DNA of 64,000 nucleotides from a virus. Each line of letters begins with the position of its first letter. The stretch's first letter is position 1. Positions 1,440-53,351 of this stretch are shown piece after piece. Position numbers and translations under genes: made by a program. The stretch covers positions 29,236 through 93,235 of IMG/VR virus record IMGVR_UViG_3300030002_000003; one strand, given 5' to 3'. The notes beneath the pieces are model-generated. The model was not told the origin of the DNA. It searched no databases and saw only the letters and a program-made list of their open reading frames with translations.

Positions 1440-1441
1440 AA

Positions 1442-15300: not shown

Positions 15301-16923
15301 ACTGAGAACCAAGGGTTAGATATGCAGGCTACTCAAATAACTGGAACTAGGGTAAATAAAATATATAATGCACCTCAAGTTCCTTCACCAGCAATCACTT
15401 CCAACGGTAAGGCTAGACCACTCTTCTTTGTAGATGATCTTGCTAGACCAGTAGGTATAATGAGAGGTGGTGGTAATATGTTTAGTCCATTTGTTAAAGT
15501 ATCTTACGATAATGGTACTTCTGTACCTGATGTAACCCTATTTGAATTAGTAGGCGTAGTTAGAAAAGGAGATGAAGGATTTGGGACTACTAAGCCAGTA
15601 TATGCAGCTATAAATAAATCCAGTGAGAAAGTCGCTGGTAAATCAGTAGTTGAATTTGGCCTAGAGAAATCAATAATACCTGCCAATAAGGTGATGGCTT
15701 ACGGTTCTATAAATAAGTCCGTGTTCGAAAGTAAAGATACTTTACTTCCTCATATACCAAATTTGTTTAATAGATATAATGAAGCGTATCAAAATGCAAG
15801 ATTATCTATAGAGCAAATGGATAGAACTTATAATTTATTTAGCACATTTCGGCCAATTACATCATTTGAATCATTTGAGAAACGTGATGCAGCGGCTAAA
15901 GAAGTTACCGATACTGTAGGTGATTTGTACGATAAAGTAATAAACTATGCTAACATAGCTAAGTCTACTGGTGATTTTGATGCCTACCAAATGTTATCTG
16001 ATATACAATCTGATGATAATGGTTATTCTGAATCACAAATAGCAGCAGCTCTGTATTTATATGCAGACACTCTAAAGTCGCTATTTAATGAGAATGCATC
16101 AGAAACAGAGTTTAAGGCCGTAGATAGCATATATGATAAATTAGGCGCTAAGACCGAAAGCAAAAATGTAAGAATAGTTAAATGGGCTGATCTAAAAGAT
16201 GCTACAGAACCGTATATACGAGTTGGAGGACATGTAGTAAATGTAATATCAACAAGAATAAAAAACTCTGATGAACATTTTGGAAATCCATTTAGTCCTG
16301 ACGCTAGAATACTTGCTAATAATAAAGATTTAATAAAAGCCGACAGTACTAAAGACGCGGTTGAGAAGTATATTGACTGGATTATTTACGGAGGCGGTGC
16401 GTTTCTAGAAGAAGGCACTGGGCATCCAACAGAGCTTAGTGAAAGGGTTGATGAACTTAAATCAAGAAGAGGCTGGATTTTGTCTAAGCTGAAGACAGGC
16501 GAATTTAAAGATAAACCAATCTTATATTACACAGAACTTGGAGAGCCATCTCATGCAACTGCATTAGATTACTTAATCAATAGATATTCATTTAAAGATG
16601 ATTTAATCAACTCTGAAGAATCTAATGATCAAATCACTAATTCCAATGAGATAGTGTCTAAAAACGCACTTAAAGCTCGTGTAGAGGAATACACCAACAA
16701 ACATATGGATGAGAATAAGGCGTATTCTGAATATTTTAACGACTACAAGGAAATTCCAATATCTGAAGGATGGACTGAAGATAAAATAGCATTATCTGAA
16801 AATTCAATAGAAGCTATAAATGGCGGACTTGAATCTATAGGATTACCTAGAATATCTCAAGAGGATTATAACAATATGTCACAAGAAGAATTAGATAAAC
16901 TAAAAGCCTGTTATGGCATATAA
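3355..16923 (+). CDS. Giant virion-packaged DNA-dependent RNA polymerase (4522 aa)
   Basis: GSDFDIDKL catalytic DxDxD motif (DFDID at 13336-13350) preceded by YRVPTQG; zincin-like HEAFH at 8821-8835; Pro/Glu-rich linker at about 6600-7030; C-terminal GNPF...SHATAL segment. Confidence 0.9.
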   Translation: MKRPKIDKRIITPGAMADYAKREASWSGMLMSAGDLSVGNYKKVAPEAPEVDTEAQDKEIARKVDVAVAEKLKAAEAGKVDTNLIPKEDKATEAPTNPLEQKQWEVNQNNWFEAYKNKLGPKSYPLTTGPSETPLFDSMKEGAKNTINFVNTGLNQIFDFPATLSDIGSHAVKFAAKSANEIDQFGKANYFSDSWKATANGFDDSHISKAAGEQVEVLGQARDGIETMSDVIKTDPTMQEALLAYNEWSKRPDKMDDGNGMPVWDQVQSDLRPAFDKHYSTIKKYIEARDKFSPNMFNTGESFEKTAHKAGLLDGIGNFVDQLGNSITGVDENNSLAGNVSRSGSGASNAEAYPKGFTPYMQPDGKPVPNYALPSTEELFGKGPGYDMRATNGYLNAMNKINLQDMKTEEDVAWHMRQKKARGDASNAFLVKQNQNDNILFSMPSQVGISSGDVTTQFASTGLSMALGAASGVSKNPFIKGAITAVNFGSNLALNAYQRKHENWMELDDNHRTKVNEYLAKNGGGDSNMLYNQSDDKILKPLLTDGAGGDEVNKARQELKENGALSTETRAIIERGILSRRIKTSDKVTNDALANGDVKLKEYMKQNDAFMWTDVAESMIMSIPFGSGATKAIELAAKPEASAAAKFAAKTIEMAEGKYTKTIGKIMQHGAMIVPKIAAAHTVDALGEAFEESGQYVNGQNYIKNHMNEYDSYIGSLIEGTNSGISGIKMILGENVDKNYYDKDQLEMNAKAGFYMGLIMPLPFTAFHTATEIRENSRENRAKSYIDGGIGAQIDSESRITKANFYVNAATKGMGDAVENHIENLSANNKDPYKKRQFQDEAKFAKEVLSVADSPQVTKFAKNNGKYGSEDHKLLTSLIVDHSAAYEDAVKKVDESNSILDKSSKTDFESDFTFQSAFNQINSRREDGSEAIIPKNVQQELHSLMAEKQATEVLINFKELSDAHDIDRKDKTVNSPQNKQFKSDLKSRLMSINNRINSFADVMSIPKEEFNDLPMAKSSNESKTALSTGIAAQEGSRYDSDVVNALSGYESKRNSNGEQSFKKMSDAKHTATVLDYLDKYRAARQSEDETEDNLQSREAEKASKDDSKTVLEENGIPHPGTHEEPATELEMAPAEEPLTTVTSSVEPTEETKPVSTEAPQVQEEPIKEVLPEEDVETSSKETPESSDVTPEPAPEVQEEPLAPTEPKGEQSVEAEEKATKETISTEKQAGRNTFAYASRMFYGVTANAVAPKSINGQRVKSHEELGKLLATNDFLVDTEIEFTMQDKNPNIGGFIPGHRTTYDQAAIIAVINKKSGPMKGYYVAMVTDPSANTATVRSMQEIIALSNFRRGIIESIASNETLPSDKKVKVVASVVKVNDGEIKTLLVDGQSVIHEQRNIADVPGFGLPMKDGKVVWSEVSSETIGLHLGKGDRGDRAIMDADQHVVSYVKDESNSGNAFISVTTPVRKDKREIKVNQKQIKRETQEVIDLIYDLVINKAASDAERIYTSHKGKQLDTGVSAFSLLDKLINFGEKTIVQESRTEEERKYLLPKQFYISSDSAARFIVYGEDSMTLDQAKTESGAKIIKDFIVGGMHWNLEKNHLSIEGTPVRVNQLFPQLDYLFNETNLGIDKVEFAKGFTITKEDVNSLTWAAWMLKNGKITTDAIDGIFGNPYLHVESYDVVPKNSISTPVSSDGGLRGLGASESVVNNSINDSVQPDKSFVTEPTVEREISPDSYDELPSFDDLMNFDLEGAPKEVNGPVTKEMNSDIESAWLMDKLGLNEDEIDIRDEIIKLAHDRRAMGLMAESSIVLWNKGEAGTAYHEAFHRVSLLLLNQSERNRIYSLARNSNSELTNATEKQIEEHLAELFREQMLSPTHVSDVLGIRKFFRKIANTTRRFLGMTPRTINRLFKDIQLGAYSDVKVDRSSLNRFKEAYTEGAEYGIKELKLRNIGTYSELFAIRDSLVYAMFQLNNVAAIGDISDLDMGTLKSWIKKVSADKSNESRSALFTEIDERFEDIFKPKINQFLAAMDIKEVDEDNRTESDSNQIADEAADHSKASYEISKADNTRASVKMFIATMPNSEMIDGKPTVSLEPLTGIPTFVPFVPSWNKMISELSDMSTVPMMIEKIDRLSKVDPFYKLLLGRLNKVDAKTGKMMLTDQFITQFWGSLFSMRHQFINIGYREIAESKDDIRNLFVIRDSDVERATRELPTLWGQSFAENPSLFPTDENGDKSFNKEYAQSIKDRYLTGLLSQTKPSKDKTKQIDLNVEENRNAVLDEIVDLYNMVGIAIDRDTLNYMLQGKKGTASEMVAELTKYLTDTKSGSMSILFNNVMSSLIKNNGELLKSAKNRKSEIRREVKEIFLNEKFAERLAVAQSKSHKSYVEATVIGADGAKLYQVSQNNIISDTVRELNTNPELVNNLINTTYVGGFVNANGVSTGSRVLRQLKDGTSKGIDLKTFVKLTEEGARDKGRDYLSISDAEDYVMKMSALANDYMTIPTMADKKTYMFVSGVELIHQPIVYSRFIKQGADGKNVADITIDFPSEAKNQLSQYMRAEFMSIKNAWQEFKTGQDLIKVYHYKSNRDGSISHGNGLRFRYFGNISAAVLLGADVINKDISLNSYLDIAEDTGNKQAFDDVLDNIERLMLNDYEVMNSVINASLMSALKKEVAYAGSIGVIEYNGTIGSIKNKLLDRGSISRKSAEMDSLLSSYDPVSGNKISNYGEQAAILDALSENLVNEIISVIEFEKLFSKDPAFYKDTDAKIKRLSSMLSTGTNLRTEWPIGHNLQGVTTFTSAEAADNIVGSREYDKVLNRFKANEINELIVAHGKLYVYDLHDLIENHSLPAESRDQAKEDRLQMLQKSFKEEFIAGSKIAEKNSAGYGLNGIDETDATVYITPKMWRNMQEMLGDWNPDMQEAFDLLESKEQSWVNNDEQYNKVAKLAMAPMKMIYFGSKVDSERGLDIPKLDKMAMFPLFKFMANGDLSHLYDTMNSKTKPIDMVAFQTAVKVGNIEASKIYTDASNTEMADLSNMVTDTQEYKYLRKQLVTDAHHQSEMSLGTQPAKAAMSNIIGDRVYQNIILDGKKGATGNRILEAWRATNVALSDRGVVDMEKELGFVKNADTGVYEFNEQKLIDLFSADAERSKMPDDVVAKLKSNTKENPVSLQALQDWKWIQSRVTSMIGKNVIDIKTPGGMFIQMTAFGLRDDGTSKAKGIGQSNYKGSYKINNGNRLRFLNDDGSMDAVVSINLFKDVIPADIKKLSFTKQVDWLISNGIIGNDSAPSSIGYRVPTQGLSSMSALKIVDVLPANIEDTIILPTEFTKLTGSDFDIDKLYIARYNFKTDSEGAIRKVEFDDSRIGKNGEDAYHSNSTTALQNRLLDLFMGILTDPSNAHETRMPLDTVTDELKGKGGILEDIDKLSNASRSTYPFEHVTPAYQSRKKAEYAGGKGGIGPMALANAHHVLTQVAKLEFFDRGPIKKFGMKDLGLVYGKDGKRILDWLSAMINAFVDIAKDPYIIRLNMNPFTYSTAELLLRTGLGKDTFYYLSQPILKDVAAAVLLTKGRYGSIKTLSAYEREQIAINEVKQTYINAAVDAARKEGGPVNEKIAKLNAIETNLDDFGRKILANEHIFGHDFLVSQISGDRNSFDWNYNQIMMMETFEELAPFSKALAELVKYSQVDGKKWGNTLISMSMYNDNVNELIAKGKSGVFRNLPEFYSKTFLGAKLKNAITMSNSIGNSMFFRTTPIMYNFLKKAGALTGSRKLLSSETVESIADATDSLIKSEFFINRANKQGVEIKDLFYGADSMARRLYKIKDKIAKADKNSLYLSLKNNVFINHLKPDIATVRYIETKDEAGNVISNRDEYNQRPDHILTDSANNSDPNYVTMLKEYWAELLDSPIEDVNKFANDFILYQFFSNGENGAINQVKLGEDVRTDIGLEKFIKDRMKNIANGELPFEYNEAIRSIFVNRWYDDDLVPYVKLTENQGLDMQATQITGTRVNKIYNAPQVPSPAITSNGKARPLFFVDDLARPVGIMRGGGNMFSPFVKVSYDNGTSVPDVTLFELVGVVRKGDEGFGTTKPVYAAINKSSEKVAGKSVVEFGLEKSIIPANKVMAYGSINKSVFESKDTLLPHIPNLFNRYNEAYQNARLSIEQMDRTYNLFSTFRPITSFESFEKRDAAAKEVTDTVGDLYDKVINYANIAKSTGDFDAYQMLSDIQSDDNGYSESQIAAALYLYADTLKSLFNENASETEFKAVDSIYDKLGAKTESKNVRIVKWADLKDATEPYIRVGGHVVNVISTRIKNSDEHFGNPFSPDARILANNKDLIKADSTKDAVEKYIDWIIYGGGAFLEEGTGHPTELSERVDELKSRRGWILSKLKTGEFKDKPILYYTELGEPSHATALDYLINRYSFKDDLINSEESNDQITNSNEIVSKNALKARVEEYTNKHMDENKAYSEYFNDYKEIPISEGWTEDKIALSENSIEAINGGLESIGLPRISQEDYNNMSQEELDKLKACYGI

Positions 16924-16928
16924 TAAAT

Positions 16929-19900
16929 ATGAAACACTGTATTAATCTTAAAAGTCCTGATTTTCAGGCATTAGCAAAAGGATCTAACATGCATCCAGCT
17001 GTATTAGCAGCAAAAATGGGTATATGGCAAGATGAAAATAATACGAGTGAATGGCCTACTCTAGATCAACTAACGTCGGAATCTTCCGAATTAGTAAAGG
17101 ATGGAGTAGATTTTGTATTTAGCCAAAATCCAGAGCTGTTAAATATTGGAAGTAAGCAGCTATATTCTCAATACGTAAATAATATATTTCCAGAAAGTGA
17201 AGTTAAATATATTGCTTATCATGGAACTAATAGTGAATTTGATAAATTTAGTTTAGAATTTGAGGGATCTAATGAAAAAGGTGGTAGAGGAAAAGGATTG
17301 AACTTTTCAAAAGATTTGTCTGATAGCGACATGTATGGAGACATTAAGATGCCAGTCGTATTGAATGCTGTAAATAGAGTTCAAAAAGATTCAGAGGCAA
17401 AAGATATTGATTTATCATACATTGATGATGTAGATGAAATTGTTTTATATAATCCAGATCAAATTCACATACTTGGATCTAAATCCGATATCGATGGATT
17501 TCGAAATTTTATAGAAGAGAATAAGCAAGAAACTGATACTATAAAATTCCAACGCTCAAATGTAGAAGTTCTTCCATTGGCTGGAAATGAAGCTCTGTAT
17601 AAAGACAAAAACCTAGTCAATGATAAAGGAGAAATCAAGTTCTTTGACAATTATGCAGCCGGCAAAAAAGCAGAAGCTTCATTTAATAGAAGCACTGATT
17701 ATCAATTCATACTCAAACCGTCTCAATCTAGAACCAAAGAAGGATGGAGATTATTTATAGTTAAACCTATTGTTGAAAGAGATGGTCAAGCTAGAATACA
17801 GTTTCAATCGCCAAATGATGCTGCAGAATCGTTAAATAACGCTGCTAGTGCGTTCGCTAAGTCTAATACAGACGCTATAATCAACGAGAATGCCCCTAGG
17901 AGCTTCACTACGGCCTCTAAATCTCTTTTTAATGCAATTGATCGTCTCAGAATAAAAGCGTCTAAGATCAGCGGATATCAATCCAAGGCTATCGTCTATT
18001 CTATAGCAAAGAATATATCAGATAGGACTGGCATTGAGTTTTCTGTTATATCTCAAGAAGAAGCTGCTGCTATGCATGCAAATTGGGGAGGATCTCCAGG
18101 AATGTATGACTCAGCAAATAAGAAGGCATATTTAGTAGAGGGTCTATTTGACGCATCTACTGCTGTACATGAGATATTCGGTCACCCATTTCTAGACTCA
18201 TTAAAAGAGACTGATGAGGGCAGACAAATCCTATCCGATTTACTGTCTGAGGCTAAACTCAATAGCCTGGTTATAGAGAGTGCAACGAGTAGATATGGCG
18301 AAGACGTTAGTGATGATGAAATAACACTTGCAGCGCTAGATTTATTTATACAAGAGAAAGTAGCTAGCAATAGTGGCCTATATAATGCCATTAAAGCCTA
18401 TTTTAAGGCGTTTACAGACCTCATTAAAGGGGTTATAGGTAAATCATCCAACGACATAGTTTCAATCAAACCTGGCACATCTATTGAAGCCATAGGTAAT
18501 TGGGCTTGGAATGGAGAAGGACGACTTAAATTAATGGACTCGTATCCTGATGGAATTGTTCCAGGGATAGAGGCTGCAATATTTCCATTCAATGCAGACA
18601 ATCACGATGCTACAGATTATGGAATAGGCCTTAATAATGAATTAATAGGTCACATATTAGTTAGTGATGATGGTCGCATCTCTAGCACTATAGGGCAGGC
18701 GGGCGTAGAGCTTGATAAAGAGTATGTTGGAAAGGGATACGGCCTTTCATCATATTTAGCTGTTGCTAAGGAACTTGCCAGTTCAGGAAAAACATTAAAA
18801 TCCGAGGGTCTTGGAAAATCCAATATAAATGAAGCAGCTAGACGAGTTTGGGCTTCATTGATCAAAAAAGGATATGCGGTGGATAGAGGCGATTATTTTG
18901 AAATAGTAAATCTTGAATCTGAATTTAGATCCATGTTGAATGTAGCTGACTCAATAGCCAATACAAATACAGAGACGGAGTTCAATCTTATGCTTGATAA
19001 TGGAGATGTCGAAGGATTTGTAAATTCTATTGCATTAAATGAACATAACTCAGAATTAGTTAAAGCTTGGATATTTGAAAATGATCCAGCTACCTTATGG
19101 GATTTGGCTCATGGAATGAAATCAGACTTAGTTGGGTTCAATGAGCATATATCCAAGAGTAGTGATATACTATTTCAAAGACCTACGGTAGAAGCTAGAA
19201 TTGAACATGCAAAGGATTTAGCTAAACAGAGAGAGTCTATTATGACTGGATTGCAGTCAAGACTTAGCTCCTTGAAGCGTGATAAGACTGCTACTATTAC
19301 AGAAATAGAGGCTTTAGATGACTTACTATTAGATATAAATAAACTATCCAATTCATCTGCGGTAGTTAGATTCCTCGAATACGCAAATAATGAAGGGTTT
19401 GACGTAAATAGAAGACTTGATGCTATGATGGGTCAGTCTAATAAGGCAGAGGAGATTGATGCTGCTAATGTAGTGTCAATTGGAGAGAACTTCTTATCTA
19501 TGTTTAGAACCAATCTAAAGAAGATAAATGAGTTATTAGTCGATGAAGCTAATTTCATAACAAACTCTATGACTCCAAGAGAAATAGATGATTTGAATAG
19601 ATTAGTCAATGGTACTAATAACGACTTCGATAAGATGGCCGCTAAGTATGATACTATCGTCAAGTATGTATATAGACAAGAGCTAGCTAAGATAGCAAAT
19701 CAAGTTGGTGACTCATCTATGCAGAGTGTTATAGATAATGCATATGAGTCAGATCAAGACGTATCTGTAATGTCATTATTTATTGGCAGCCCCGCTAAGT
19801 CCAGACTAGTTCAAATTAGAGCTCTAGATAGAAAGATACTCGATGCTAAGAATGCAGCAAATTTAGAATTAAGCAGAAGCGGTTATGTTGCTAAATTAGT

Positions 19901-22900
19901 AGCATTAAATAATAAGATAAATAAGTTAAGTCCTGTAAAATCATTCACTCAGTTCTATGAAAAAAACAAGGATGGAAAGTTTACTGGATATATAACTCAC
20001 TTTCTTAAATATGGAGAGTTTAATGCTAATTACGAAGCTAAAATAGAGGAACTTGCTAAAAAGTATAATCTTCCTGGAAAGATGGATAGGCCTACTAATG
20101 ATGCAGAATATATAGCCTACAATAAAGAGCTTAATAAGTTCTTAAATGAACATGTAGCTAGAAAGTTTGTTCCCGAATATTACGACGCTAGAGCTAAGTT
20201 ATCTATAGATACAAATGAATCATTAGATCAAGTAAATAATGCTATAAGTAGAATATCTAGAGATTATTTGGATGCTGATGGACACTTAGATACTTCTAGG
20301 ATGTCAAAATCTGAAAAGTATGCTCTGTGGGACGCTAGAAAGACTAAGGAATATTTATCCAGCGATAGATACGCTAATGGAGATATAAAACTAGAATCTG
20401 ACCTTAAGATAGCAAACGAAATAAAAGCTTTCAATGAATCTATAAGCGGTAACCTAAAATACAAAGCAAATGTAGAAGCGTTCGAGAATGCCAAAAAGAA
20501 TGTTAAATTGAATTTATCTCCTGAGAAGTACTTGCAGTGGATAGAGGATAATACAAAGGTTGAGTATGATGAGAAATTCTATGAGCAATTGGCTAAAATA
20601 GAAAAGGCTGACCAAGCTCCTGAATGGCAAGACCTATATGATAAAAAACAGGCTATCTTAAAACGTTTTAAAAACAAAGATACAATGGGTATCAATGTTG
20701 ATATGATGGAAGAGACTAGACAAGGTGGACGATCAGTTAGATCTATTATAGACGAGATAAATGAAACCTTATCCAATAATAAGAATGAAAATGTAGCTAC
20801 AGATGGAGTTAAATTCTCTAGCTTGGCCAGAATGATAACTACTAGGGAGTATAAGCAGAAATTAGCAGATATGTCTAGTATATCGCCAACTGATACAGCT
20901 GGATGGGCCGCAATGGAGCAATGGTATAAGGATAACCATACCCAAGATAGAATGGGTCACGAGGTTCCTAAATCATACTGGATGATGATAGAGCCGAAAG
21001 ATACTACCCTTATTAAGAAAGGAGTTCCTAATTCAACCTGGACTGTTTTAGATGACGAGTCTAAATTTGTCAATAAAGAGTATGATGATGATTTAGCTAA
21101 GAACGGAATGCAGCCATCTAAGAAGTTATACGACAATTCAAAAGTATATAACAAATTAGTTAGTGATCCAACTAGAAAAGAGTTTCATGATACCTTAGTT
21201 TCTATGATGACTGAGGCTAATTCATTTTACTCTTATATAAATAGGCCAAACAACTTAAAGATGCCTCAAATAGCTGAGCATTCATTACTATCTGCGTTTA
21301 GACGTACTGATAGCGGAAAGAGTTTACTTGAGAGAATAAAATCTATTGGCCAACCTAGAGTTGATGATATCCAGTTTGGTGAAAAACCGAAAGAATATAG
21401 ACCCGATGGTAGTCCAATTAAATACATCCCTACTTCATATAGATCTACATTAGGGAATACAAACTCTATATCAAAGGATATGATTCACATGTATGCTATC
21501 TATTATCAAGAAGCCGCTAACTTTAAACACTTATCTGAAGCTTTGCCAGCAATAAAGATACTTCAGGCAGGTATGGATAATACTGTTATATCAAATAAGG
21601 AATCATTAGCTAATGCAGATAAGCTTGAAAGAGATAATGCTGGAGCTAGATGGAGAAGTCTATCTGATGACGTTAGATCTGCTATCGGCCTTAAAAAGAG
21701 TACTGATAGAGTAATGAAAAAAGCTGGGGAAACTCATCTATCATCTAGAGCTAAAGGAATTATAGAAAGAGAAGTGTATGGAGTAGAGTCTACTAAGATG
21801 ATGGTAGGTATACCTCTAACTGGAATAAAATTTGATATAGGGAAACTAGTAAAAGGTGTATTTCTTCCTTGGTTTAGGGCTGTCAATTTAGGTTTTAATA
21901 CTATGGCAATTGCAGCTAATTATACTCAATCGGAACATGCTTTAATGGTAGAATCTACTATTGGCTCTTTAATCAATAAAACAAATTTGCTTAGAGCTAA
22001 TTGGGAAATAGGGAAAAGAATGCCATATCTATTGGCTACACTGACTTCAGATAGGCATACTGATAAGACTTCTACACTGATGAGATTCTTTCAAACTTCA
22101 AATTCGGAAGTTGAATCAGTAAAGGATATTAACGGAGTAAAAGCTTTAAGTTTTATTAAGGAGCACTGGCTATATGGACCATACTCTGCTGGTGACTTCA
22201 TGGTTAAATCTAAGATGTTAACTGCAATGCTAATGGGATACAAATACCATAATGGAGAATTTGTAAGCTTAGAATCATTTATCAATAAGAATTACCCTGG
22301 AAAGATTAATAGGAAGGAAGCTATTCAACTACACGATGCATTAAAAGTAAATTTATATGATGTTCTATCTTCAACAGATAAAGGAGAGTTAGTCATAAAG
22401 GATGAATACAAAGACGCTTTTAACTATAAGCTAATATCTTCCATTACGCTACAATCAATGGACATGGGTAATAGATTAGATGGTATGCTTGCTCCTTCTG
22501 ATAAGAATGCTATAAATGTTAACGCATTTGCAAGTGCTTTGATGATGCACCGTGGATGGTTAGTAAATGCATTCCAAGAAAGACTTGGAGGTCAGATGTA
22601 TAGCTACAGAAAGGAAAGAATGGAAGTTGGCCAATACAGAACTGGATTTACAGATTCTGCTAAAATTCTATTCGGCTATCTATCTGGAAGGTTTCAAAAA
22701 ACTAATCAAATGATGAACGAAATGGGTCAAGCTGAATATGCAAATGCCGTTAGAACTACTGGTGAAATTGCATCAATGTTTATATTTGCAATGGCTACTG
22801 TTATTCTAGGAAATATGCATGACGAGGAACCTGACGATATGGCATTAGAATTAGCTTATACATTTATGATGAGAGCTCTTTACGAACAAAATGCTATGTA

Positions 22901-23264
22901 TTCTCCTGCTGACTTAAGCAGTATTTTACAAAGTCCTACAGCAGCTCAGAATCAATTAAATGAGATGTCCGATATATACGGCATGTTAATAGATGGAGAC
23001 TATATGAAACCGGTTAGAAGTGGTAAATATAAGGATATGCCTAAAATTGAAAAGTCAATAATAAAGCTTATTCCAGGGTATAAAGGATACTACGAGAATA
23101 TAGAAAAAGCTGACTATAAAACTAAGCGTGACTATATGTTAAAAGCAGAAGGTCCAGCATATGGTATAGTTAACAGAATAAATAAAATGACCCCATTGTT
23201 CGGAGCAAAGCCAGAGATTCCAGTTCAAACTCAGTCGTCGGTAAGTTCAAACTCCTCATACTAG
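16929..23264 (+). CDS. Large polyvalent ejection protein (2111 aa) with ART-like, zincin-like and GNAT-like domains
   Basis: AYHGT...GKGLNFS...EIVLYNPDQI; HEIFGH; EYVGKGYG...AARRVW; long helical remainder; follows the RNAP gene. Confidence 0.75.
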   Translation: MKHCINLKSPDFQALAKGSNMHPAVLAAKMGIWQDENNTSEWPTLDQLTSESSELVKDGVDFVFSQNPELLNIGSKQLYSQYVNNIFPESEVKYIAYHGTNSEFDKFSLEFEGSNEKGGRGKGLNFSKDLSDSDMYGDIKMPVVLNAVNRVQKDSEAKDIDLSYIDDVDEIVLYNPDQIHILGSKSDIDGFRNFIEENKQETDTIKFQRSNVEVLPLAGNEALYKDKNLVNDKGEIKFFDNYAAGKKAEASFNRSTDYQFILKPSQSRTKEGWRLFIVKPIVERDGQARIQFQSPNDAAESLNNAASAFAKSNTDAIINENAPRSFTTASKSLFNAIDRLRIKASKISGYQSKAIVYSIAKNISDRTGIEFSVISQEEAAAMHANWGGSPGMYDSANKKAYLVEGLFDASTAVHEIFGHPFLDSLKETDEGRQILSDLLSEAKLNSLVIESATSRYGEDVSDDEITLAALDLFIQEKVASNSGLYNAIKAYFKAFTDLIKGVIGKSSNDIVSIKPGTSIEAIGNWAWNGEGRLKLMDSYPDGIVPGIEAAIFPFNADNHDATDYGIGLNNELIGHILVSDDGRISSTIGQAGVELDKEYVGKGYGLSSYLAVAKELASSGKTLKSEGLGKSNINEAARRVWASLIKKGYAVDRGDYFEIVNLESEFRSMLNVADSIANTNTETEFNLMLDNGDVEGFVNSIALNEHNSELVKAWIFENDPATLWDLAHGMKSDLVGFNEHISKSSDILFQRPTVEARIEHAKDLAKQRESIMTGLQSRLSSLKRDKTATITEIEALDDLLLDINKLSNSSAVVRFLEYANNEGFDVNRRLDAMMGQSNKAEEIDAANVVSIGENFLSMFRTNLKKINELLVDEANFITNSMTPREIDDLNRLVNGTNNDFDKMAAKYDTIVKYVYRQELAKIANQVGDSSMQSVIDNAYESDQDVSVMSLFIGSPAKSRLVQIRALDRKILDAKNAANLELSRSGYVAKLVALNNKINKLSPVKSFTQFYEKNKDGKFTGYITHFLKYGEFNANYEAKIEELAKKYNLPGKMDRPTNDAEYIAYNKELNKFLNEHVARKFVPEYYDARAKLSIDTNESLDQVNNAISRISRDYLDADGHLDTSRMSKSEKYALWDARKTKEYLSSDRYANGDIKLESDLKIANEIKAFNESISGNLKYKANVEAFENAKKNVKLNLSPEKYLQWIEDNTKVEYDEKFYEQLAKIEKADQAPEWQDLYDKKQAILKRFKNKDTMGINVDMMEETRQGGRSVRSIIDEINETLSNNKNENVATDGVKFSSLARMITTREYKQKLADMSSISPTDTAGWAAMEQWYKDNHTQDRMGHEVPKSYWMMIEPKDTTLIKKGVPNSTWTVLDDESKFVNKEYDDDLAKNGMQPSKKLYDNSKVYNKLVSDPTRKEFHDTLVSMMTEANSFYSYINRPNNLKMPQIAEHSLLSAFRRTDSGKSLLERIKSIGQPRVDDIQFGEKPKEYRPDGSPIKYIPTSYRSTLGNTNSISKDMIHMYAIYYQEAANFKHLSEALPAIKILQAGMDNTVISNKESLANADKLERDNAGARWRSLSDDVRSAIGLKKSTDRVMKKAGETHLSSRAKGIIEREVYGVESTKMMVGIPLTGIKFDIGKLVKGVFLPWFRAVNLGFNTMAIAANYTQSEHALMVESTIGSLINKTNLLRANWEIGKRMPYLLATLTSDRHTDKTSTLMRFFQTSNSEVESVKDINGVKALSFIKEHWLYGPYSAGDFMVKSKMLTAMLMGYKYHNGEFVSLESFINKNYPGKINRKEAIQLHDALKVNLYDVLSSTDKGELVIKDEYKDAFNYKLISSITLQSMDMGNRLDGMLAPSDKNAINVNAFASALMMHRGWLVNAFQERLGGQMYSYRKERMEVGQYRTGFTDSAKILFGYLSGRFQKTNQMMNEMGQAEYANAVRTTGEIASMFIFAMATVILGNMHDEEPDDMALELAYTFMMRALYEQNAMYSPADLSSILQSPTAAQNQLNEMSDIYGMLIDGDYMKPVRSGKYKDMPKIEKSIIKLIPGYKGYYENIEKADYKTKRDYMLKAEGPAYGIVNRINKMTPLFGAKPEIPVQTQSSVSSNSSY

Positions 23265-36947: not shown

Positions 36948-37427
36948 TTAATCTTCTAAACGATACAGCTCGCGTTTTGCGTTGTTTGCGTCAATCACAT
37001 TTTCCAACGCTTCCATTTGGTCTGCGATGTCTTTTTGGATTGCTGCTAAGCGGTTGTATTCGCCTTGGTTTGCTGCATTTACGATATCGGTAACTACGTC
37101 GTAGTCAGCGAAAAATGCCTCTTTGTCTTTTTCAGACACTCCCGGATTGTAACGTCCAGATTCAGAGATAAACTCCTGATTGGCAGGTATGGTCATTCCT
37201 TTTTCGCCACCACCGTTTACGATGATAGTGTCAGAATTACCGATGCCTTTGATTGATTTTACTTCGTTTACCACAATTGTTTTGGTGGTATACAGTTTTG
37301 CTTTTGTTTCGATTCTGGCCTCTGGGCCTTTTGATTTGTGAGTGGCATCAAGATCAGCTACTTCGATTGTGTGAATTGTAGCATCAAGATGCAAGATCCG
37401 CTTTGCGGGATTGATATTTTTGTTCAT
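36948..37427 (-). CDS. Hypothetical protein
   Basis: 159-aa ORF with an A-rich leader. Confidence 0.7.
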   Translation of the reverse strand: MNKNINPAKRILHLDATIHTIEVADLDATHKSKGPEARIETKAKLYTTKTIVVNEVKSIKGIGNSDTIIVNGGGEKGMTIPANQEFISESGRYNPGVSEKDKEAFFADYDVVTDIVNAANQGEYNRLAAIQKDIADQMEALENVIDANNAKRELYRLED

Positions 37428-37439
37428 TTTTTTTAATTT

Positions 37440-39265
37440 GGTTTTTTAATATTGATTATTTATTCGGGATTTGATTCCCATTGATTGTTTGCATATGTTA
37501 GCGCGTAGCTTAATGATAGAGTCTGTCCAACAAGGCCCTCCTGATCAATTAACAATGTTTGCTTTGAAAAAAAACACCTAATTTACGATTAGATTATGGG
37601 TTTTGCGCCCACTTCAGTTATTAGTTCGATATTTGCCCGTTTAAGGCTGTTTTGCGGCGTTCTAAGCCATTGTAATATTGAAATTGATAAATTGCATAGC
37701 TTTGAATGAAATGCTCTTATATCGCTTTAAAATGCTTTTACTAAGTAGTATGTTAATTATGGGCTGCTCCATCAATTAAATCACTTTATACCATGTTACT
37801 GTCTATTTAGTAATAGATCTATAAACAGATTGGCCTGTGTACAGTATATATTGTGACCGTTTGCCTACCATTTGTCCGTTGTTTTTACTTTTCTGTTTGA
37901 AAACAAAAACAGTGAAAAAGAACCCATAATGTGCGCGAATCTCGTATTAGCTCCTCATATAAATGAATATTGGTGTTCTAAAATCCCTAGTAAGCCCTCG
38001 AATGCTTAGCGCTATTTAATCTTTTGATTGATATTTCTTTGTATTTCCTCTATTTAGTGACGATTTTTTATCTCCCAGGCAAGGGACTACTTCGAGATTA
38101 TTAATTTATCTCGTTTCGCTTTGTGTACAGTTTGGACCTGCTTGCTTTCGGTATTATTCGTTAGACGACCAGCATGTTAAATACTTAGGTTCCTAAACTT
38201 TAAGGCATTCTTAATCTATTTCCTGACCCGTGTCGGTCTTTCTATAAATCGTTGACATGATCTTTTAAGTAACTTCATGTTTCTACTTTGTGTTGGTGCT
38301 TGGCTGCTGCCTCCATTCAATATTCCTCCCCTGAGGATACTTACTAATACACAGTAATACTATGGGTGAATTACTTTCCCTAATTCGCAGCTTTTGATTC
38401 CTAGCGGTAGAATCTGTTGAAATGTATTATCCCATTTCAGGACTTCCGATCTCTGTTGTGTCATCGGGTAACACTCTAGTTCTTTAATTGCGCAATACAT
38501 TATACCTTGTAACGCAGGTTGTTAATTTCCATCTTTTTCTTCTGTCATAAATTAACTAAACTCGACAGGGGCTCTCACTCCTTATTCCTAAAGGAAACTA
38601 TTGAACTGGCCAATACTTGAAGGCTTGAGATATAGTTATGGTGCTGCTTATGTATTTTTCACATACATATCTTGCTAACTATTTTTACTCCTGGTCTTAT
38701 GCTTTCTGGACGGCCTATCTTGGAGTGATACTCAATTTGAGCTGAGTTTTTGAATGGTATATAATTTGTGCCCTCCCACGGTTTCCTTATATCCTTTGTT
38801 TGTGATTCATTTTTTTCCACCATCACTAGTGGCCTGCTTGGTAAAGCATACTATCGGCTTTCGCCTTAATTGTTCTCTAGATTCCAAAGTCATAAAGCCA
38901 ATTCTACTTCCGCGATACACTGCGCAAGCTTAAAGCATGTGTGGATTTTCTCAAAAGCTATTCCGTGCTGTTCAGCCCTTTACGCGTTGTTTCATGGCGG
39001 GGCTGAGTCGTCTACCATCGGGGGTTTCATCGTTTTGGACATTTTATATAGCGGCAGTCCCCAGTCGCATTTTAATTGCATATCTCTACCAAAGTGGCAT
39101 GACAATCTCGTTAGTGATTAATATTATGATAACTTTATGATAGCTACTACCTTTTATATAGCGCCCTGCACTCTATCGACCGAGTAACGCTTCAGCTTTC
39201 TATTGATTCCCCTTTTGCTGATATTTGGTCTCCATTTCCTCTCACACCTGTTTTGTGCGGATTTT
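37440..39265 (-). ncRNA. Candidate large structured non-coding RNA(s), about 1.8 kb
   Basis: No minus-strand ORF of 60 aa or more; many hairpins and a 10-bp long-range complement. Confidence 0.45.
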
Positions 39266-39267
39266 GT

Positions 39268-39606
39268 TTATAGAATCTCTCCTGTTTCAATATTCAAAAA
39301 AGCAGATCCGTCACCAGCTTTGGAAATATCCAATAGAGGCTCCTTTAAATCTACTTGTGCAAGATACTCAACGATGATATGTTTTTCTTTGCTAAATCCT
39401 GGTATTTGTTTGAATTCGACCGATACTTCCACTTTTAGTCTTTTGATTTTTCCATCAATTCGATTCAAAGCCTCTTCTAGTGGATCTGTTAGATAAGTAT
39501 CGCCATGTAATTTTACATATAGCGTATCTGCCACCTGTTGTCTCGCTTGGTATAAGCGGTGAATAGTCGCACTTTTCATGCGAATTTTGTCGATTGTCGT
39601 TTTCAT
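39268..39606 (-). CDS. Hypothetical protein
   Basis: 112-aa ORF coupled to the upstream gene. Confidence 0.65.
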   Translation of the reverse strand: MKTTIDKIRMKSATIHRLYQARQQVADTLYVKLHGDTYLTDPLEEALNRIDGKIKRLKVEVSVEFKQIPGFSKEKHIIVEYLAQVDLKEPLLDISKAGDGSAFLNIETGEIL

Positions 39607-41123: not shown

Positions 41124-41507
41124 CTAACTTGTGTTTAATATCATATCGCTGCGTGGAGGCCGCCGAGTGCATACAGTGTATGCTGCTTTAGTGGTTGTTG
41201 ACTGAGGTGCTGGTACTACCATTTGCCGTTCCATTGTTGTGTTATTCATTGTAGTATTCATCGCAGGCCGTTCTAAGGCTGTTGCGTATACTTCAAATGA
41301 ATTCAATGGTAAGCAAAATAATTCAGGTGCTACTGCTGGAACATTATTGATTGCCAAAGATTTGCTTACGATTGCATGGTCTTTGTTTTGTGCTATCAAC
41401 GTTGTTTGTTCTGGCATAAACACTCCAAATAGTACACCCAAAAGCATCACGAAAACCGATTTAGCCAAGAAATCCATTCCCGCTAAAAACAATTGATTTG
41501 TCTTCAT
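41124..41507 (-). CDS. Membrane protein overlapping the sigma gene end
   Basis: Single N-terminal hydrophobic helix (SVFVMLLGVLFGVFM); sits where anti-sigma genes usually lie, but there is no sequence support for that role. Confidence 0.55.
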   Translation of the reverse strand: MKTNQLFLAGMDFLAKSVFVMLLGVLFGVFMPEQTTLIAQNKDHAIVSKSLAINNVPAVAPELFCLPLNSFEVYATALERPAMNTTMNNTTMERQMVVPAPQSTTTKAAYTVCTRRPPRSDMILNTS

Positions 41508-42060
41508 TTTTTTTACTTTTTTGGTTAATATTTGAAATTATTTTCTCTTTGTATCTGTGAAGATAGTGTTTTATTGTCCCGATACTAAGGCCCAATCTAT
41601 CTGCAATTTCTTGATATGTTAATTCTTCGGTAAATCTCATTTGGATTATCTCCTTTTGTCGACTTCCCATTTTACTGATAGTTTTTGCTAGCATTTCAGA
41701 TTCCTCTTTCTTTATCATTTCCTTTTCAGGATTTGAATAATCAGTATGGACAAATTCTTGCTCTAGTTCATCGTCTATATATAGATCTCCTTGACTCTTT
41801 TTTCCGCTACGAATAAAGTCTATTGAATGGTGATTTGCTATAGTTTTGAGCCACATCTCAAATGAAATGTCTTTTGTGAATTTATCTATGCTTTTAAATG
41901 CCTTTAGGAACGTTTCTGACGTTAGATCGTCTGCTACGTCCTTATTCTTCACTATGTTATATACATTGCAGTAGACTGCTCTATAATGCGTATTATACAG
42001 CATTGTGAATGCCTTCTGTGAGCCAGCCTTGGCTAATTCAATTGCCTCTTTACTTGTCAT
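41461..42060 (-). CDS. ECF-type (sigma-70 group 4) sigma factor
   Basis: Region 2 AFTMLY...ADDLTSETFLKAF...FEMWLKTIANHHSIDFIR; region 4 HTH LTYQEIADRLGLSIGTIKHYLHR. Confidence 0.92.
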   Translation of the reverse strand: MTSKEAIELAKAGSQKAFTMLYNTHYRAVYCNVYNIVKNKDVADDLTSETFLKAFKSIDKFTKDISFEMWLKTIANHHSIDFIRSGKKSQGDLYIDDELEQEFVHTDYSNPEKEMIKKEESEMLAKTISKMGSRQKEIIQMRFTEELTYQEIADRLGLSIGTIKHYLHRYKEKIISNINQKSKKNEDKSIVFSGNGFLG

Positions 42061-42925: not shown

Positions 42926-42927
42926 AG

Positions 42928-43001
42928 TGATTCCTAAAGGATTCAAACCTTTAACCGCTGCCTTAGAAAGACAATGCTCTATTCGGTTGAGCTAAGGAAC
43001 C
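42928..43001 (-). tRNA. tRNA-Arg(UCU)
   Basis: GGTTCCT-TA-GCTC AACCGAATA GAGC-A-TTGTC TT TCT AA GGCAG-CGGTT-AAAGG TTTGAAT CCTTT-AGGAATC-A; CCA not encoded. Confidence 0.9.
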
Positions 43002-44612: not shown

Positions 44613-44875
44613 TAAAACCCTACCAGGGCTAATTGAATAGACGTGCGGCTCTCGCTCACGACCTGGTAGGTACGTTCTAAATTATGCAGACATTAAGCCT
44701 ACGTAATTGTTGATTTGGATTGTGTTGTTGCCAGTTAATTAGCGTGTGCAGTCCTATCTGGTTCATCTTATGCCGCTGTCAAATCCAGGCAGCCCCTTAT
44801 GGTTTTTTATAAGGAGTGGAGCTGGAGGGGATCGAACCCTCGTCCAAACGGCGAATCCGCAGCCTACGGGCCGTA
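44613..44875 (-). ncRNA. ssrA: Circularly permuted (two-piece) tmRNA gene
   Basis: Acceptor piece GCCGTTTGGAC GAGGG TTCGATC CCCTC CAGCTCC A (ends 44817) precedes a 20-nt spacer and the coding piece starting GGGGCTGCCTGGATTTGACAGCGGC (44796); G3-U70 pair; tag frame 44732-44682 reads GNNTIQINNYVGLMSA*. Outer ends are approximate. Confidence 0.88.
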
Positions 44876-45774: not shown

Positions 45775-45891
45775 TTATATTTAAAATGGTACTAACAGCT
45801 AGTTCGTTTCCTACTTAAGCTGCGTTCCCATTTATGGCTAGTAATTTTGAATGGCAAAATAATAATTAACTAGCCGTTATATTGTTAAAAG

Positions 45892-45962
45892 TAGCCCCGC
45901 GTGGAATCAAACCACATTTACCGCGCTGAAAGTGCGATGTCCTATCAGTAGACGACAGGGCC
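45892..45962 (-). tRNA. tRNA-Glu(UUC)
   Basis: GGCCCTG-TC-GTC TACTGATAG GAC-A-TCGCA CT TTC AG CGCGG-TAAA-TGTGG TTTGATT CCACG-CGGGGCT-A; one A31-C39 mismatch. Confidence 0.82.
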
Positions 45963-46398: not shown

Positions 46399-46424
46399 TT
46401 TGATAATGATTTAATTGTTAATAA

Positions 46425-47715
46425 TAGGTCCCAGCAACTCAATCAAGAGTTGGTCAGCGTTCATGCCTTGACTTCTGCTGGGCAGTAATCTGTTTAACTA
46501 GTATTTTTGGTATTGATCTTTGGTGTTCCTGACCTAAGTCCTTGTTATCCACGTGATTCAAATATCCTAACTATGCGAGATTACTAATGTGCCCGGCTGT
46601 CTATAAAACCTTACCCGTCTAAAACGGTAATGGGAGTTATAACGGTAATGGCAGTGTCCTTCGGATACCATTGCGTGCATTTCACTTACAAATACTACTT
46701 CGTGGCCCTCTGGCTCACTCCACTTCTAAACCTCTATCCATATCTGTAATAGTCTTCGGGTTAATTCTTTCTATCTGCCGTCGCCTTAAGATAGCTATAA
46801 TCTTCTTTCCAGCATTTCACTGAGCTTAGATTAGCGTTGTTTTCTCGGTTTTTATCTGAATTACACAGCATCCAATACTATCGTATTACCGAAAAGGGTT
46901 TACGCATTAATTCAATAATGTTACGTAACATAGATTCTTAATCAATCATCAGCTTACTGCACTTCATTTAGCTGCAACCATTCTATTCATTTCTCTTATT
47001 TGCATTCAATGCTTCTAAGTAGTTGAATAGGTTTTGGTGCCTTCACGCATATGCACCGCGCCTCAAAATTATTACGACTCCATTTCTGGTCCACGTATTT
47101 GAGTGCGAATTTCGTTAATCTTTTCTAATCAACTAATTATTATATAATATCCGTCTACATAACCCAAGTTCGATAATTGACTTATTCCCTACGCTGTAGG
47201 TTCAACTCCTTTCTCTCCCTGTTCACTGGTTCGGTTTGCATCATACTTCCATAGATATTATAAATAACTAGTAATTAACATGAGAATTTCTTCTAAATCC
47301 TTATCAATCGATAATATATAATACTTACTCTTCGTCTCACGACGTCTGGCTGAAGTATAGTACCAGAATATATGTAAAACGTTTGCCCATCCATGTTCTG
47401 TTTTAAGTATTTTATCTTTTACTTACATTGGTTAAGACCACTCTCCGCCTTGCTAGCTCAGCTTACTGTTTTTATTCAGCATCTGCCTCGACATTTTTCT
47501 ATGGGTTTCTCGATTTGCATGCAGCTAGGTGTACATGCCTATTTTCATGATCCATGAATCACTTCTCCGATAACTTATTTTGGTCTGTGTAAAAAATACC
47601 TCTTAATCAGTCTGCCCTTTGGAAGCAGATGCGACATGTTAACAAAAGACACTAACTCACGCTTTCTCCTACTTGTGGTCTGGATACTAAACAATATGGT
47701 TAAATGCCTTTTTTA
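46425..47715 (-). ncRNA. Candidate large structured non-coding RNA(s), about 1.3 kb
   Basis: No ORF of 60 aa or more on either strand; many hairpins. Confidence 0.45.
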
Positions 47716-47720
47716 TTTTA

Positions 47721-53323: not shown

Positions 53324-53351
53324 TAAAACCTTTTCAATATATATACGTTAT
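53324..53351 (+). promoter_or_regulatory. ECF-type promoter P1 (TAAAAC-N16-CGTTAT)
   Basis: AAC at 53327-53329 and CGTT at 53346-53349; same geometry at three other sites. Confidence 0.65.

What the first reader, a model, noticed from the sequence alone, without database searches (positions are those of the whole stretch)
37440..39265. 1.8-kb ORF-free, hairpin-dense tract: candidate giant ncRNA
Seen: no sense-strand ORF of 60 aa in an otherwise packed genome; stems TCAGCCC/GGGCTGA (38972-39006), GGC GAAA GCC (38856-38865), TATGTAT/ATACATA (38649-38669) and CGAGAT/ATCTCG (38093-38113); a 10-bp long-range pair between 37593-37602 and 37921-37930. Known: phages carry large structured RNAs such as GOLLD and ROOL, which are shorter than this tract. 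I cannot assign it to a family.
Basis: partly seen in the sequence, partly recalled or inferred. Interest (0 to 1): 0.7.

Follow-up and report, generated by a model that had tools for sequence, protein, structure and literature searches.

The report
Giant structured RNA, crAss-like phage
The 1.8-kb gene-free stretch of this peat crAss-like phage is a conserved, intricately base-paired non-coding RNA locus about 1.55 kb long, roughly twice the size of the largest known ornate phage RNAs, which matches no catalogued RNA family and has no known job.

Summary
The tract is real and non-coding. The sense (minus) strand has no ORF over 55 aa, no stop-codon recoding opens it, and substitutions show no codon periodicity, while the neighbouring gene does.

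Fourteen diverged relatives from peat and related metagenomes keep a 1.5-2.3 kb ORF-free tract at the same place. Homology runs from about 39113 to 37566.

Structure is supported by covariation, not folding energy (MFE z about 0). Three tested blocks hold 55 pairs, 88-99% paired against 26-48% when partners are slid, and 37 pairs show compensatory changes. At least one pseudoknot, a GNRA hairpin, multi-helix junctions and a 3' tandem hairpin are conserved. G-U pairs outnumber A-C 84 to 12, which places the RNA on the minus strand.

Rfam has no match. The phage is closest to Suoliviridae. Gut phage cr53_1 has an unannotated 2.1-kb gap at the syntenic spot, and it shares the tandem-hairpin module and two weak blocks.

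This scan has already reported the Suoliviridae giant RNA locus many times on other DNA. This window adds a divergent environmental lineage.

The only published precedent I found is the abundant long non-coding RNAs of crAss-like phage phi14:2. Expression, transcript ends and function are untested here.

The parts
37428..39267 (-). Whole tract between two minus-strand genes, with no sense-strand ORF of 60 aa or more
37566..39113 (-). Conserved RNA body, about 1548 nt. Homology with 13 diverged relatives spans this range.
   Evidence: nhmmer. In wastewater contigs the stretch 39114-39222 is replaced by 141 unrelated letters while both flanks align (table 5).
39114..39267 (-). Non-conserved leader after the upstream gene. 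The promoter presumably lies here or further upstream; none was identified.
39037..39068 (-). 5' pseudoknot. Hairpin 39068-39064/39055-39051 has loop bases 39060-39057 that pair with 39040-39037.
   Evidence: The second stem shows GC and AU alternation at col 94/113 (AU 5, GC 5). The first stem shows G-U, A-U and U-A variants.
38972..39018 (-). Second interleaved pair of helices. Inside it lies the strand 38997-38994, which pairs upstream with 39018-39015.
   Evidence: The outer helix has different sequences in the relatives that one search scored (for example AUUGGC/GCCAAU, GCUGG/CCAGC, UCACUA/UAGUGA, CCAUUUA/UAAAUGG).
38903..38943 (-). Conserved UUUAAGCUUC...GAAGUAGG helix, with a possible crossing helix (ACAC/GUGU, ACGC/GCGU, CUC/GAG)
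   Evidence: the crossing helix is weakly supported
38856..38865 (-). GNRA-tetraloop hairpin GGC-GAAA-GCC. It is nearly invariant, and three relatives replace it with a longer insert between the same stem halves.
38319..38341 (-). Mid-domain hairpin of 9 pairs, 8 of them with compensatory changes
38044..38208 (-). Core domain C1. A two-part closing helix (38205-38202/38050-38047 and 38198-38193/38057-38052) encloses variable hairpins, helix 38144-38141/38083-38080, a small hairpin and the invariant GUACACAAA strand.
   Evidence: Alignment A3: 24 pairs, 87.9% paired against 76.0% in shuffles and 28-48% when slid, 14 pairs with changes on both sides. Model R1 finds all 14 members and nothing else.
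37933..38013 (-). Core domain C2. Closing helix 38013-38009/37936-37933, inner hairpin 38006-37993, and helix 37986-37978/37950-37937.
   Evidence: 20 pairs, 91.4% paired against 72.1% in shuffles and 26-41% when slid, 15 pairs compensatory.
37620..37845 (-). 3' domain. It repeats the motif order of C1+C2 (ACUGUACACA, ACUAAAUAGA, UUAGAAC..., ...GAACUAAUA) and contains the strongly covarying hairpin 37778-37754.
   Evidence: (D9, D10). Three relatives lack part of this domain.
37577..37612 (-). 3' tandem hairpins. The first is 37612-37596. The second is 37593-37577, with a near-invariant CGUAA loop.
   Evidence: Alignment A8: 99.2% paired, 8 of 11 pairs compensatory. Model R2 finds the held-out member L025 (E 0.001) and gut phage cr53_1 (E 0.002).
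37566..37573 (-). U-run after the last hairpin, a possible transcript end. The U-run is present in only some relatives.
   Evidence: inferred

Best explanation
The tract is a gene, or tight gene cluster, for a very large multi-domain structured non-coding RNA. It is read from the minus strand, in the same direction as the neighbouring early and replication genes. The conserved body (about 39113 to 37566, roughly 1.55 kb) folds into a chain of conserved domains: a 5' domain with at least one pseudoknot and a GNRA hairpin, a middle domain, two core junction domains, a partly duplicated 3' domain, and a terminal tandem hairpin that may end the transcript. It is the environmental (peat-lineage) counterpart of the roughly 2-kb giant RNA locus that Suoliviridae crAss-like phages keep at the syntenic position. 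Inferred, not shown: like the abundant long non-coding RNAs of crAss-like phage phi14:2, it is made early, stays abundant, and acts in trans as a folded RNA (a scaffold or RNA-protein or RNA-only assembly in the manner of GOLLD/ROOL) rather than as a message or a DNA site.
For: Non-coding:
- The sense strand has no ORF over 55 aa, and no recoding opens one.
- Substitutions among four relatives show no 3-base periodicity (0.439 against a null of 0.445 +/- 0.005). The adjacent gene shows it strongly (0.581 against 0.379 +/- 0.009).
- The small ORFs hit no Pfam family and only insignificant PHROG matches (E 0.03-0.06).

Conserved:
- 14 sequences at least 5% diverged keep a 1.5-2.3 kb ORF-free tract between the same flanking genes.
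- The flanking protein is only 27-44% identical among the homologous copies, yet RNA islands reach 70-85% nucleotide identity.

Structured:
- Covariation counts on sequence-only alignments support all three tested blocks.
- Further covarying helices occur all along the tract.

Strand: 84 G-U cells against 12 A-C cells in the annotated pairs.

Family link:
- The nearest named phages are Suoliviridae.
- cr53_1 has an unannotated 2125-nt gap flanked by homologues of the same proteins.
- That gap is itself covarying.
- It is hit by R2 (E 0.002), with weaker hits at the same relative place in other gut loci.
- It is also hit by the peat profile, on the sense strand only (E 0.001 and 0.004).

Precedent for expression: the long intergenic regions of phi14:2 are transcribed above most genes from the earliest time point and do not decline (bioRxiv 10.1101/2020.03.07.982082, read).
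Against: - There are no expression data for this phage.
- Neither a promoter nor a clear terminator was identified. The U-run after the last hairpin is not conserved.
- Single-sequence folding energy is no better than shuffles.
- No helix spanning more than about 170 nt is supported, so one long molecule is not demonstrated.
- Modules come and go between relatives.
- The link to the gut locus rests on synteny, size and three short weak matches whose order is not fully collinear. R1 finds nothing in gut loci or in phi14:2.
- Only 14 sequences were used. The shuffle controls are not probabilities.
Confidence: 0.8

Rival explanations
1. The tract is not one giant RNA. It is a string of several independent or processed RNA modules of 100-400 nt each, transcribed together or separately and then cut apart.
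For: - All supported helices are local, at most about 170 nt in span.
- Domains are gained and lost between relatives: three lack part of the 3' domain, and L014 and L019 lack 5' parts.
- The motif order of the core is repeated in the 3' domain.
- Gut tracts carry the tandem-hairpin-type module twice.
- tRNA and tmRNA genes lie 3-8 kb away on the same strand.
Against: - The size and order of the domains are kept across lineages whose flanking proteins have diverged to about 30% identity.
- No internal promoter or terminator signals were found above chance.
- No tRNA-like or RNase P-type processing signals were detected.
Confidence: 0.35
2. The tract is a cis-acting element of replication or packaging: an origin, a primer or R-loop transcript, or a pac site. 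Its structures would act on DNA or on a nascent primer RNA.
For: It lies next to the replication module of helicase, primase and exonuclease. In phi14:2 and cr53_1 the analogous gaps also lie upstream of the polymerase or helicase genes.
Against: - There are no iterons or tandem repeats.
- There is no AT-rich dip and no GC-skew turning point. The cumulative skew maximum is at the strand switch near window 22.8 kb.
- The G-U against A-C asymmetry of 84 to 12 indicates selection on one RNA strand, not on duplex or cruciform DNA.
- Pseudoknots and a GNRA loop are RNA features.
Confidence: 0.08
3. The tract is a decayed or recoded protein gene, an intron-interrupted gene, or an array of micro-ORFs.
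For: Two plus-strand ORFs of 83 and 67 aa exist. Some crAss-like phages use alternative codes and carry introns (PMC7886860, abstract).
Against: - No recoding opens a frame.
- There is no codon periodicity.
- There are no protein-family hits.
- No ORF at the same position recurs in the relatives.
- Rfam finds no group I or II intron.
- Both flanking genes are complete, with their own starts and stops.
- There is no reverse transcriptase in the genome.
Confidence: 0.02

Closest known systems
Long non-coding RNAs of crAss-like Cellulophaga phage phi14:2 (g004-g005 and g005-g006 intergenic regions; Drobysheva et al., bioRxiv 10.1101/2020.03.07.982082)
   Same: Both are in crAss-like phages. The phi14:2 protein-free region is about 1.7 kb (NC_021806 2905-4601, old ORF calls removed). 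It lies among early genes upstream of the replication genes and is read in the same direction as its neighbours. The paper shows abundant, persistent transcripts of unknown function.
   Different: phi14:2 belongs to a different family (Steigviridae). Models R1 and R2 find no sequence or structure match. The text I read (the transcription section) defines no structure or family for these RNAs. Expression is shown there and not here.
Giant RNA locus of Suoliviridae gut crAss-like phages
   Same: The position is syntenic between homologous flanking genes. Size is similar, 1.8 against 2.1 kb. Both show covariation and have no Rfam match. They share the tandem hairpin with a CGUAA loop and two weak collinear blocks.
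   Different: Most of the sequence is not alignable. The core model R1 finds nothing in gut loci. The shared module sits at the 3' end here but about 700-830 nt into the gut tracts. The habitat is peat, wastewater and freshwater rather than gut.
GOLLD and ROOL RNAs (large ornate RNAs of phages, prophages and bacteria; PMC12286853)
   Same: All are large, multi-domain, pseudoknotted RNAs carried by phages. Their function is unknown. By my own recollection, not tested here, GOLLD and ROOL genes are often near tRNA genes; here tRNA and tmRNA genes lie 3-8 kb away.
   Different: Their Rfam models give no match at gathering or permissive thresholds. This tract is about twice as long. Oligomeric cage formation was not tested.
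Candidate structured RNAs predicted from IMG/VR intergenic regions (PMC10690425)
   Same: The data source and the covariation logic are the same. Pieces of this tract may be among those motifs.
   Different: Those candidates are 30-151 nt long, average 67, and are not joined into a kilobase-scale locus. I did not check their supplementary files for overlap.

Membership tests
GOLLD RNA (Rfam) | Match to the family covariance model | tested here: not met
   No hit in the window at gathering score, none in 37200-39500 at E up to 10, and none in four related loci.
ROOL RNA (Rfam) | Match to the family covariance model | tested here: not met
   Same searches.
Group I / group II introns | Ribozyme core matching the Rfam models, and interruption of a host gene into two exons | tested here: not met
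   There are no Rfam hits. Both flanking genes are complete and conserved as separate genes. There is no reverse transcriptase in the genome.
phi14:2-type long non-coding RNAs of crAss-like phages | Long protein-free region among early genes of a crAss-like phage, co-directional with its neighbours | tested here: met
phi14:2-type long non-coding RNAs of crAss-like phages | Abundant transcript from early infection that persists late | not testable with these tools
   No RNA run holds the tract, and the runs labelled RNA-Seq behaved as DNA.
phi14:2-type long non-coding RNAs of crAss-like phages | Sequence or structure homology to the phi14:2 regions | tested here: not met
   R1 and R2 with filters off on NC_021806 1-14000 gave a best E of 0.46 and 0.86, neither match lying wholly in the gap.
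Suoliviridae giant RNA locus (this scan's earlier findings) | Same genomic position between homologous flanking genes | tested here: met
   The 112-aa upstream protein matches cr53_1 gp37 (E 2e-7). The 187-aa downstream protein matches gp40 (E 4e-11). The 188-aa protein matches gp45 (E 4e-32), followed by the helicase.
Suoliviridae giant RNA locus (this scan's earlier findings) | Shared RNA sequence and structure | tested here: inconclusive
   R2 hits cr53_1 at E 0.002, with weak hits at the same relative place in L052, L075/77, L054-L070 and L071/72. nhmmer gives E 0.001 and 0.004 on the sense strand only. The core model R1 finds nothing, and module order differs.
Suoliviridae giant RNA locus (this scan's earlier findings) | Kilobase-scale ORF-free tract with covarying helices and no Rfam match | tested here: met
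   for this window; for the gut loci

The most novel reading that the evidence does not exclude
The whole conserved body is one RNA molecule of about 1.55 kb. That would make it the largest structured non-ribosomal RNA known from a phage or bacterium. It would build a defined three-dimensional machine or multimeric assembly that crAss-like phages of several families (peat lineage, gut Suoliviridae, perhaps phi14:2) need for host takeover, making it a new class of RNA with its own biochemical activity.
Probability: 0.3. Interest if true: 0.92.

Novelty: new variant of a known kind. Interest (0 to 1): 0.8.

Why it matters
[quoted passage not shown] A kilobase-scale RNA under strong structural selection is held at one genomic position in lineages whose neighbouring proteins have drifted to about 30% identity. 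That implies an important RNA-based function, one that neither Rfam nor the crAss-like phage papers I read describe. This window shows that the locus is not confined to gut phages. A peat, wastewater and freshwater lineage carries a very divergent version that still shares a tandem-hairpin module. This supplies the sequence diversity needed for covariation-based modelling and points to the most constrained parts. It also gives a concrete target for cryo-EM and for transcript mapping in cultured crAss-like phages.

Tried and rejected
- **Rfam.** Nothing at gathering or permissive thresholds in the tract or in related loci.
- **Stop-codon recoding.** No frame opens.
- **blastn against GenBank phages.** No match.
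- **Related loci through the two flanking ORFan proteins.** None found. The helicase worked instead.
- **Metagenome pattern scan.** 24 stretches matched, 9 real and 15 chance matches, about as many as I estimated chance alone would give.
- **Expression.** No RNA holder is listed for the tract. The four runs labelled RNA-Seq cover relatives of the phage across genes and tract alike, and the tool marks three of them as probably DNA, so they say nothing on transcription.
- **Promoter and terminator scan.** Promoter-like sites were no more frequent than in shuffles (11 against 9.3); terminator-like sites were somewhat more frequent (5 against 2.0 +/- 1.5) but all lie on the plus strand.
- **ECF-type AAC-N14-TACGTT sites.** None upstream of the tract on the minus strand.
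- **Folding energy.** z about 0 on both strands.
Not conserved.
- **Core model R1.** No hit in gut Suoliviridae loci or in phi14:2. R2 also found nothing in phi14:2.
- **Reverse transcriptase.** None in the genome, so not a retron, DGR or group II template.
- **GC skew.** No turning point at the tract.
- **Column-wise counts for two variable 5' helices.** These failed on the MAFFT alignment because the helices shift in register. Per-sequence helix search was used instead.
- **Second ORF-free tract 46399-47720.** No homologue among the fetched loci, which do not reach that far.

Full report
**Setting**

The window is part of a 93,235-bp IMG/VR virus record rated complete. The genes around the finding lie on the minus strand. 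They include a DnaB-type helicase, a primase, an exonuclease and an ECF-type sigma factor. Two tRNAs and a permuted tmRNA lie nearby.

The nearest named phages by helicase (65-59% identity) and primase (about 50%) are the 'cr' crAss-like phages from human faeces; the two whose taxonomy I checked, cr118_1 and cr53_1, are classed in Suoliviridae. The DNA occurs in peat metagenomes. The runs with partial matches that I laid (wastewater, freshwater, aquatic) held contigs about 85-95% alike.

**The observation**

Between the genes 36948-37427 and 39268-39606, the sense strand has no ORF longer than 55 aa. The plus strand has ORFs of 83 and 67 aa. Reading any one stop codon as sense does not open a gene-sized frame.

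However, the minimum free energy of 37566-38230 is no better than that of dinucleotide shuffles on either strand, with z of -0.01 and +0.50. 'Hairpin-dense' is therefore not in itself more than chance.

**Relatives**

The two flanking proteins are ORFans and brought in nothing. The helicase brought 80 loci. In every relative with enough flank there is a 1.5-2.3 kb ORF-free tract between the same small genes.

nhmmer shows homology over most of the tract, at positions 155-1705 of 1840. After removing near-duplicates there are 14 sequences at least 5% diverged. Most are only about 50% identical overall, with islands of 70-85%. The adjacent protein is 27-44% identical among the homologous copies.

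A motif pattern taken from the core found only this clade in IMG/VR. In JGI metagenomes it found 9 true copies plus 15 chance matches. In two wastewater assemblies the stretch 39114-39222 is replaced by unrelated sequence while both flanks align. This places the 5' limit of the conserved body near 39113.

**Not coding**

Among four relatives 70-83% identical, substitutions in the tract fall evenly on the three phases: 0.439 against a null of 0.445 +/- 0.005. In the adjacent gene they pile on one phase: 0.581 against 0.379 +/- 0.009. The small ORFs hit no Pfam family and only insignificant PHROG matches (E 0.03-0.06). The genome has no reverse transcriptase. Rfam finds no intron or any other family.

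**Structure**

The evidence is comparative, and I counted it on alignments made from sequence alone.

| Block | Window range | Pairs | Paired | Shuffled | Slid partners | Pairs compensatory |
|---|---|---|---|---|---|---|
| Core C1 | 38044-38208 | 24 in six helices | 87.9% | 76.0% | 28-48% | 14 |
| Core C2 | 37933-38013 | 20 | 91.4% | 72.1% | 26-41% | 15 |
| 3' tandem hairpins | 37577-37612 | 11 | 99.2% | 80.6% | 30-44% | 8 |

- In C1, the four-pair helix CAAG/CUUG becomes CGAG/CUCG, CAGG/CCUG or CACG/CGUG in single relatives.
- The second tandem hairpin has a near-invariant CGUAA loop.
- Further covarying helices occur along the whole tract. Examples are 38341-38319 and 37778-37754, each with 8 or more compensatory pairs.
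- In the 5' domain, a hairpin whose loop pairs downstream forms a pseudoknot (39068-39037). The second stem alternates A-U and G-C.
It encloses a strand that pairs upstream, which makes a second crossing arrangement.
- The GNRA hairpin at 38856-38865 is nearly invariant.
- In the annotated pairs, G-U cells outnumber A-C cells 84 to 12. The selected strand is therefore the minus strand.
Its 3' arm overlaps the 3' strand of the first terminal hairpin and the linker after it.

**Architecture**

No supported helix spans more than about 170 nt. Domains are lost in some relatives. The motif order of the core (GUACACA, ACUAAAUAG, UUAGAAC, GAACUAAUA) recurs in the 3' domain. I cannot tell one 1.55-kb molecule from a string of modules. 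A U-run follows the last hairpin here but not in all relatives. No promoter was identified.

**Wider family**

RefSeq cr53_1 (Suoliviridae) has an unannotated 2125-nt gap. Its upstream neighbour gp37, and gp40 and gp45 downstream, are homologues of the proteins flanking our tract. The 3' part of that gap is itself covarying in nine gut-type loci, with 60 predicted pairs of which 28 are compensatory.

The covariance model of our terminal tandem hairpin (R2) gave these results:
- It recovers a held-out family member at E 0.001.
- It hits the cr53_1 gap at E 0.002.
- It gives weaker hits at the same relative position, about 700-830 nt into the gap, in many other gut-type loci.

The peat profile also finds two short blocks in cr53_1, on the sense strand only, at E 0.001 and 0.004. 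The core model R1 finds nothing there, and module order differs. I therefore rate orthology as likely but not proven.

Notes of this scan show that the gut Suoliviridae locus has been reported many times on other DNA. They also led me to Drobysheva et al. I read that paper. It reports that two long intergenic regions of crAss-like phage phi14:2 are transcribed above most genes from the earliest time point and do not decline, with function unknown. In the phi14:2 record this is a roughly 1.7-kb region whose ORF calls were withdrawn. Neither model matches it.

**Reading**

Shown:
- A conserved, non-coding, strand-specific, heavily base-paired RNA locus.
- No known RNA family.
- Carried by a peat-lineage crAss-like phage.

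Inferred:
- It is the counterpart of the Suoliviridae giant RNA locus.
- It is expressed as a stable early RNA, as in phi14:2.
- It acts in trans as a folded scaffold or assembly, in the manner of GOLLD/ROOL.

The rival readings are an array of modules, a replication or packaging element, and a decayed gene. They are weighed in their own sections. Only the first remains serious.

Noticed in passing
window 46399-47720: A second long stretch (1322 nt) without any ORF of 60 aa on either strand lies on the far side of the tRNA/tmRNA cluster. It may be another large RNA locus. The fetched relatives do not reach it, so conservation is unknown.
   Followed up: partly
window 44682-44864 (tmRNA), 42927-43001 and 45891-45962 (tRNAs): The phage carries a permuted tmRNA (Rfam RF04321, 55.7 bits), plus tRNA-Arg(TCT) and tRNA-Glu(TTC), on the same strand as the giant RNA.
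   Followed up: no
window 41461-42060; plus-strand sites at 53327, 54021, 55891, 60346: An ECF-type sigma factor gene is present (Sigma70_r2 and r4). Four exact AAC-N14-TACGTT sites lie on the plus strand at the far end of the window. Sites with up to one mismatch are not enriched overall (18 against 12.5 expected).
   Followed up: partly
L117 (NC_055889.1, cr53_1) 1020-3144: The RefSeq record of this human-gut crAss-like phage leaves 2125 nt unannotated here. The 3' part shows 28 compensatory pairs among nine relatives.
   Followed up: partly
L116 (NC_055872.1, cr118_1) 9995-11318; L020 10001-11234: The helicase gene is annotated as two CDSs with a 355-nt gap in cr118_1. In L020/L023 it matches over about 230 extra bases, which suggests an insertion (intron or intein) in the helicase of some relatives.
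   Followed up: no
window 3355-16923 and 16929-23264: There are two giant plus-strand ORFs of 4522 and 2111 aa. The 2111-aa protein has no PHROG match at E 1e-5 or below; the 4522-aa one was not searched.
   Followed up: no
window 38049-38058 / 37802-37811 and 38122-38131 / 37836-37845: Two exact 10-nt direct repeats lie inside the tract. On the RNA strand they read ACUAAAUAGA and ACUGUACACA, the most conserved single-stranded motifs of the core. This indicates an internal domain duplication.
   Followed up: partly
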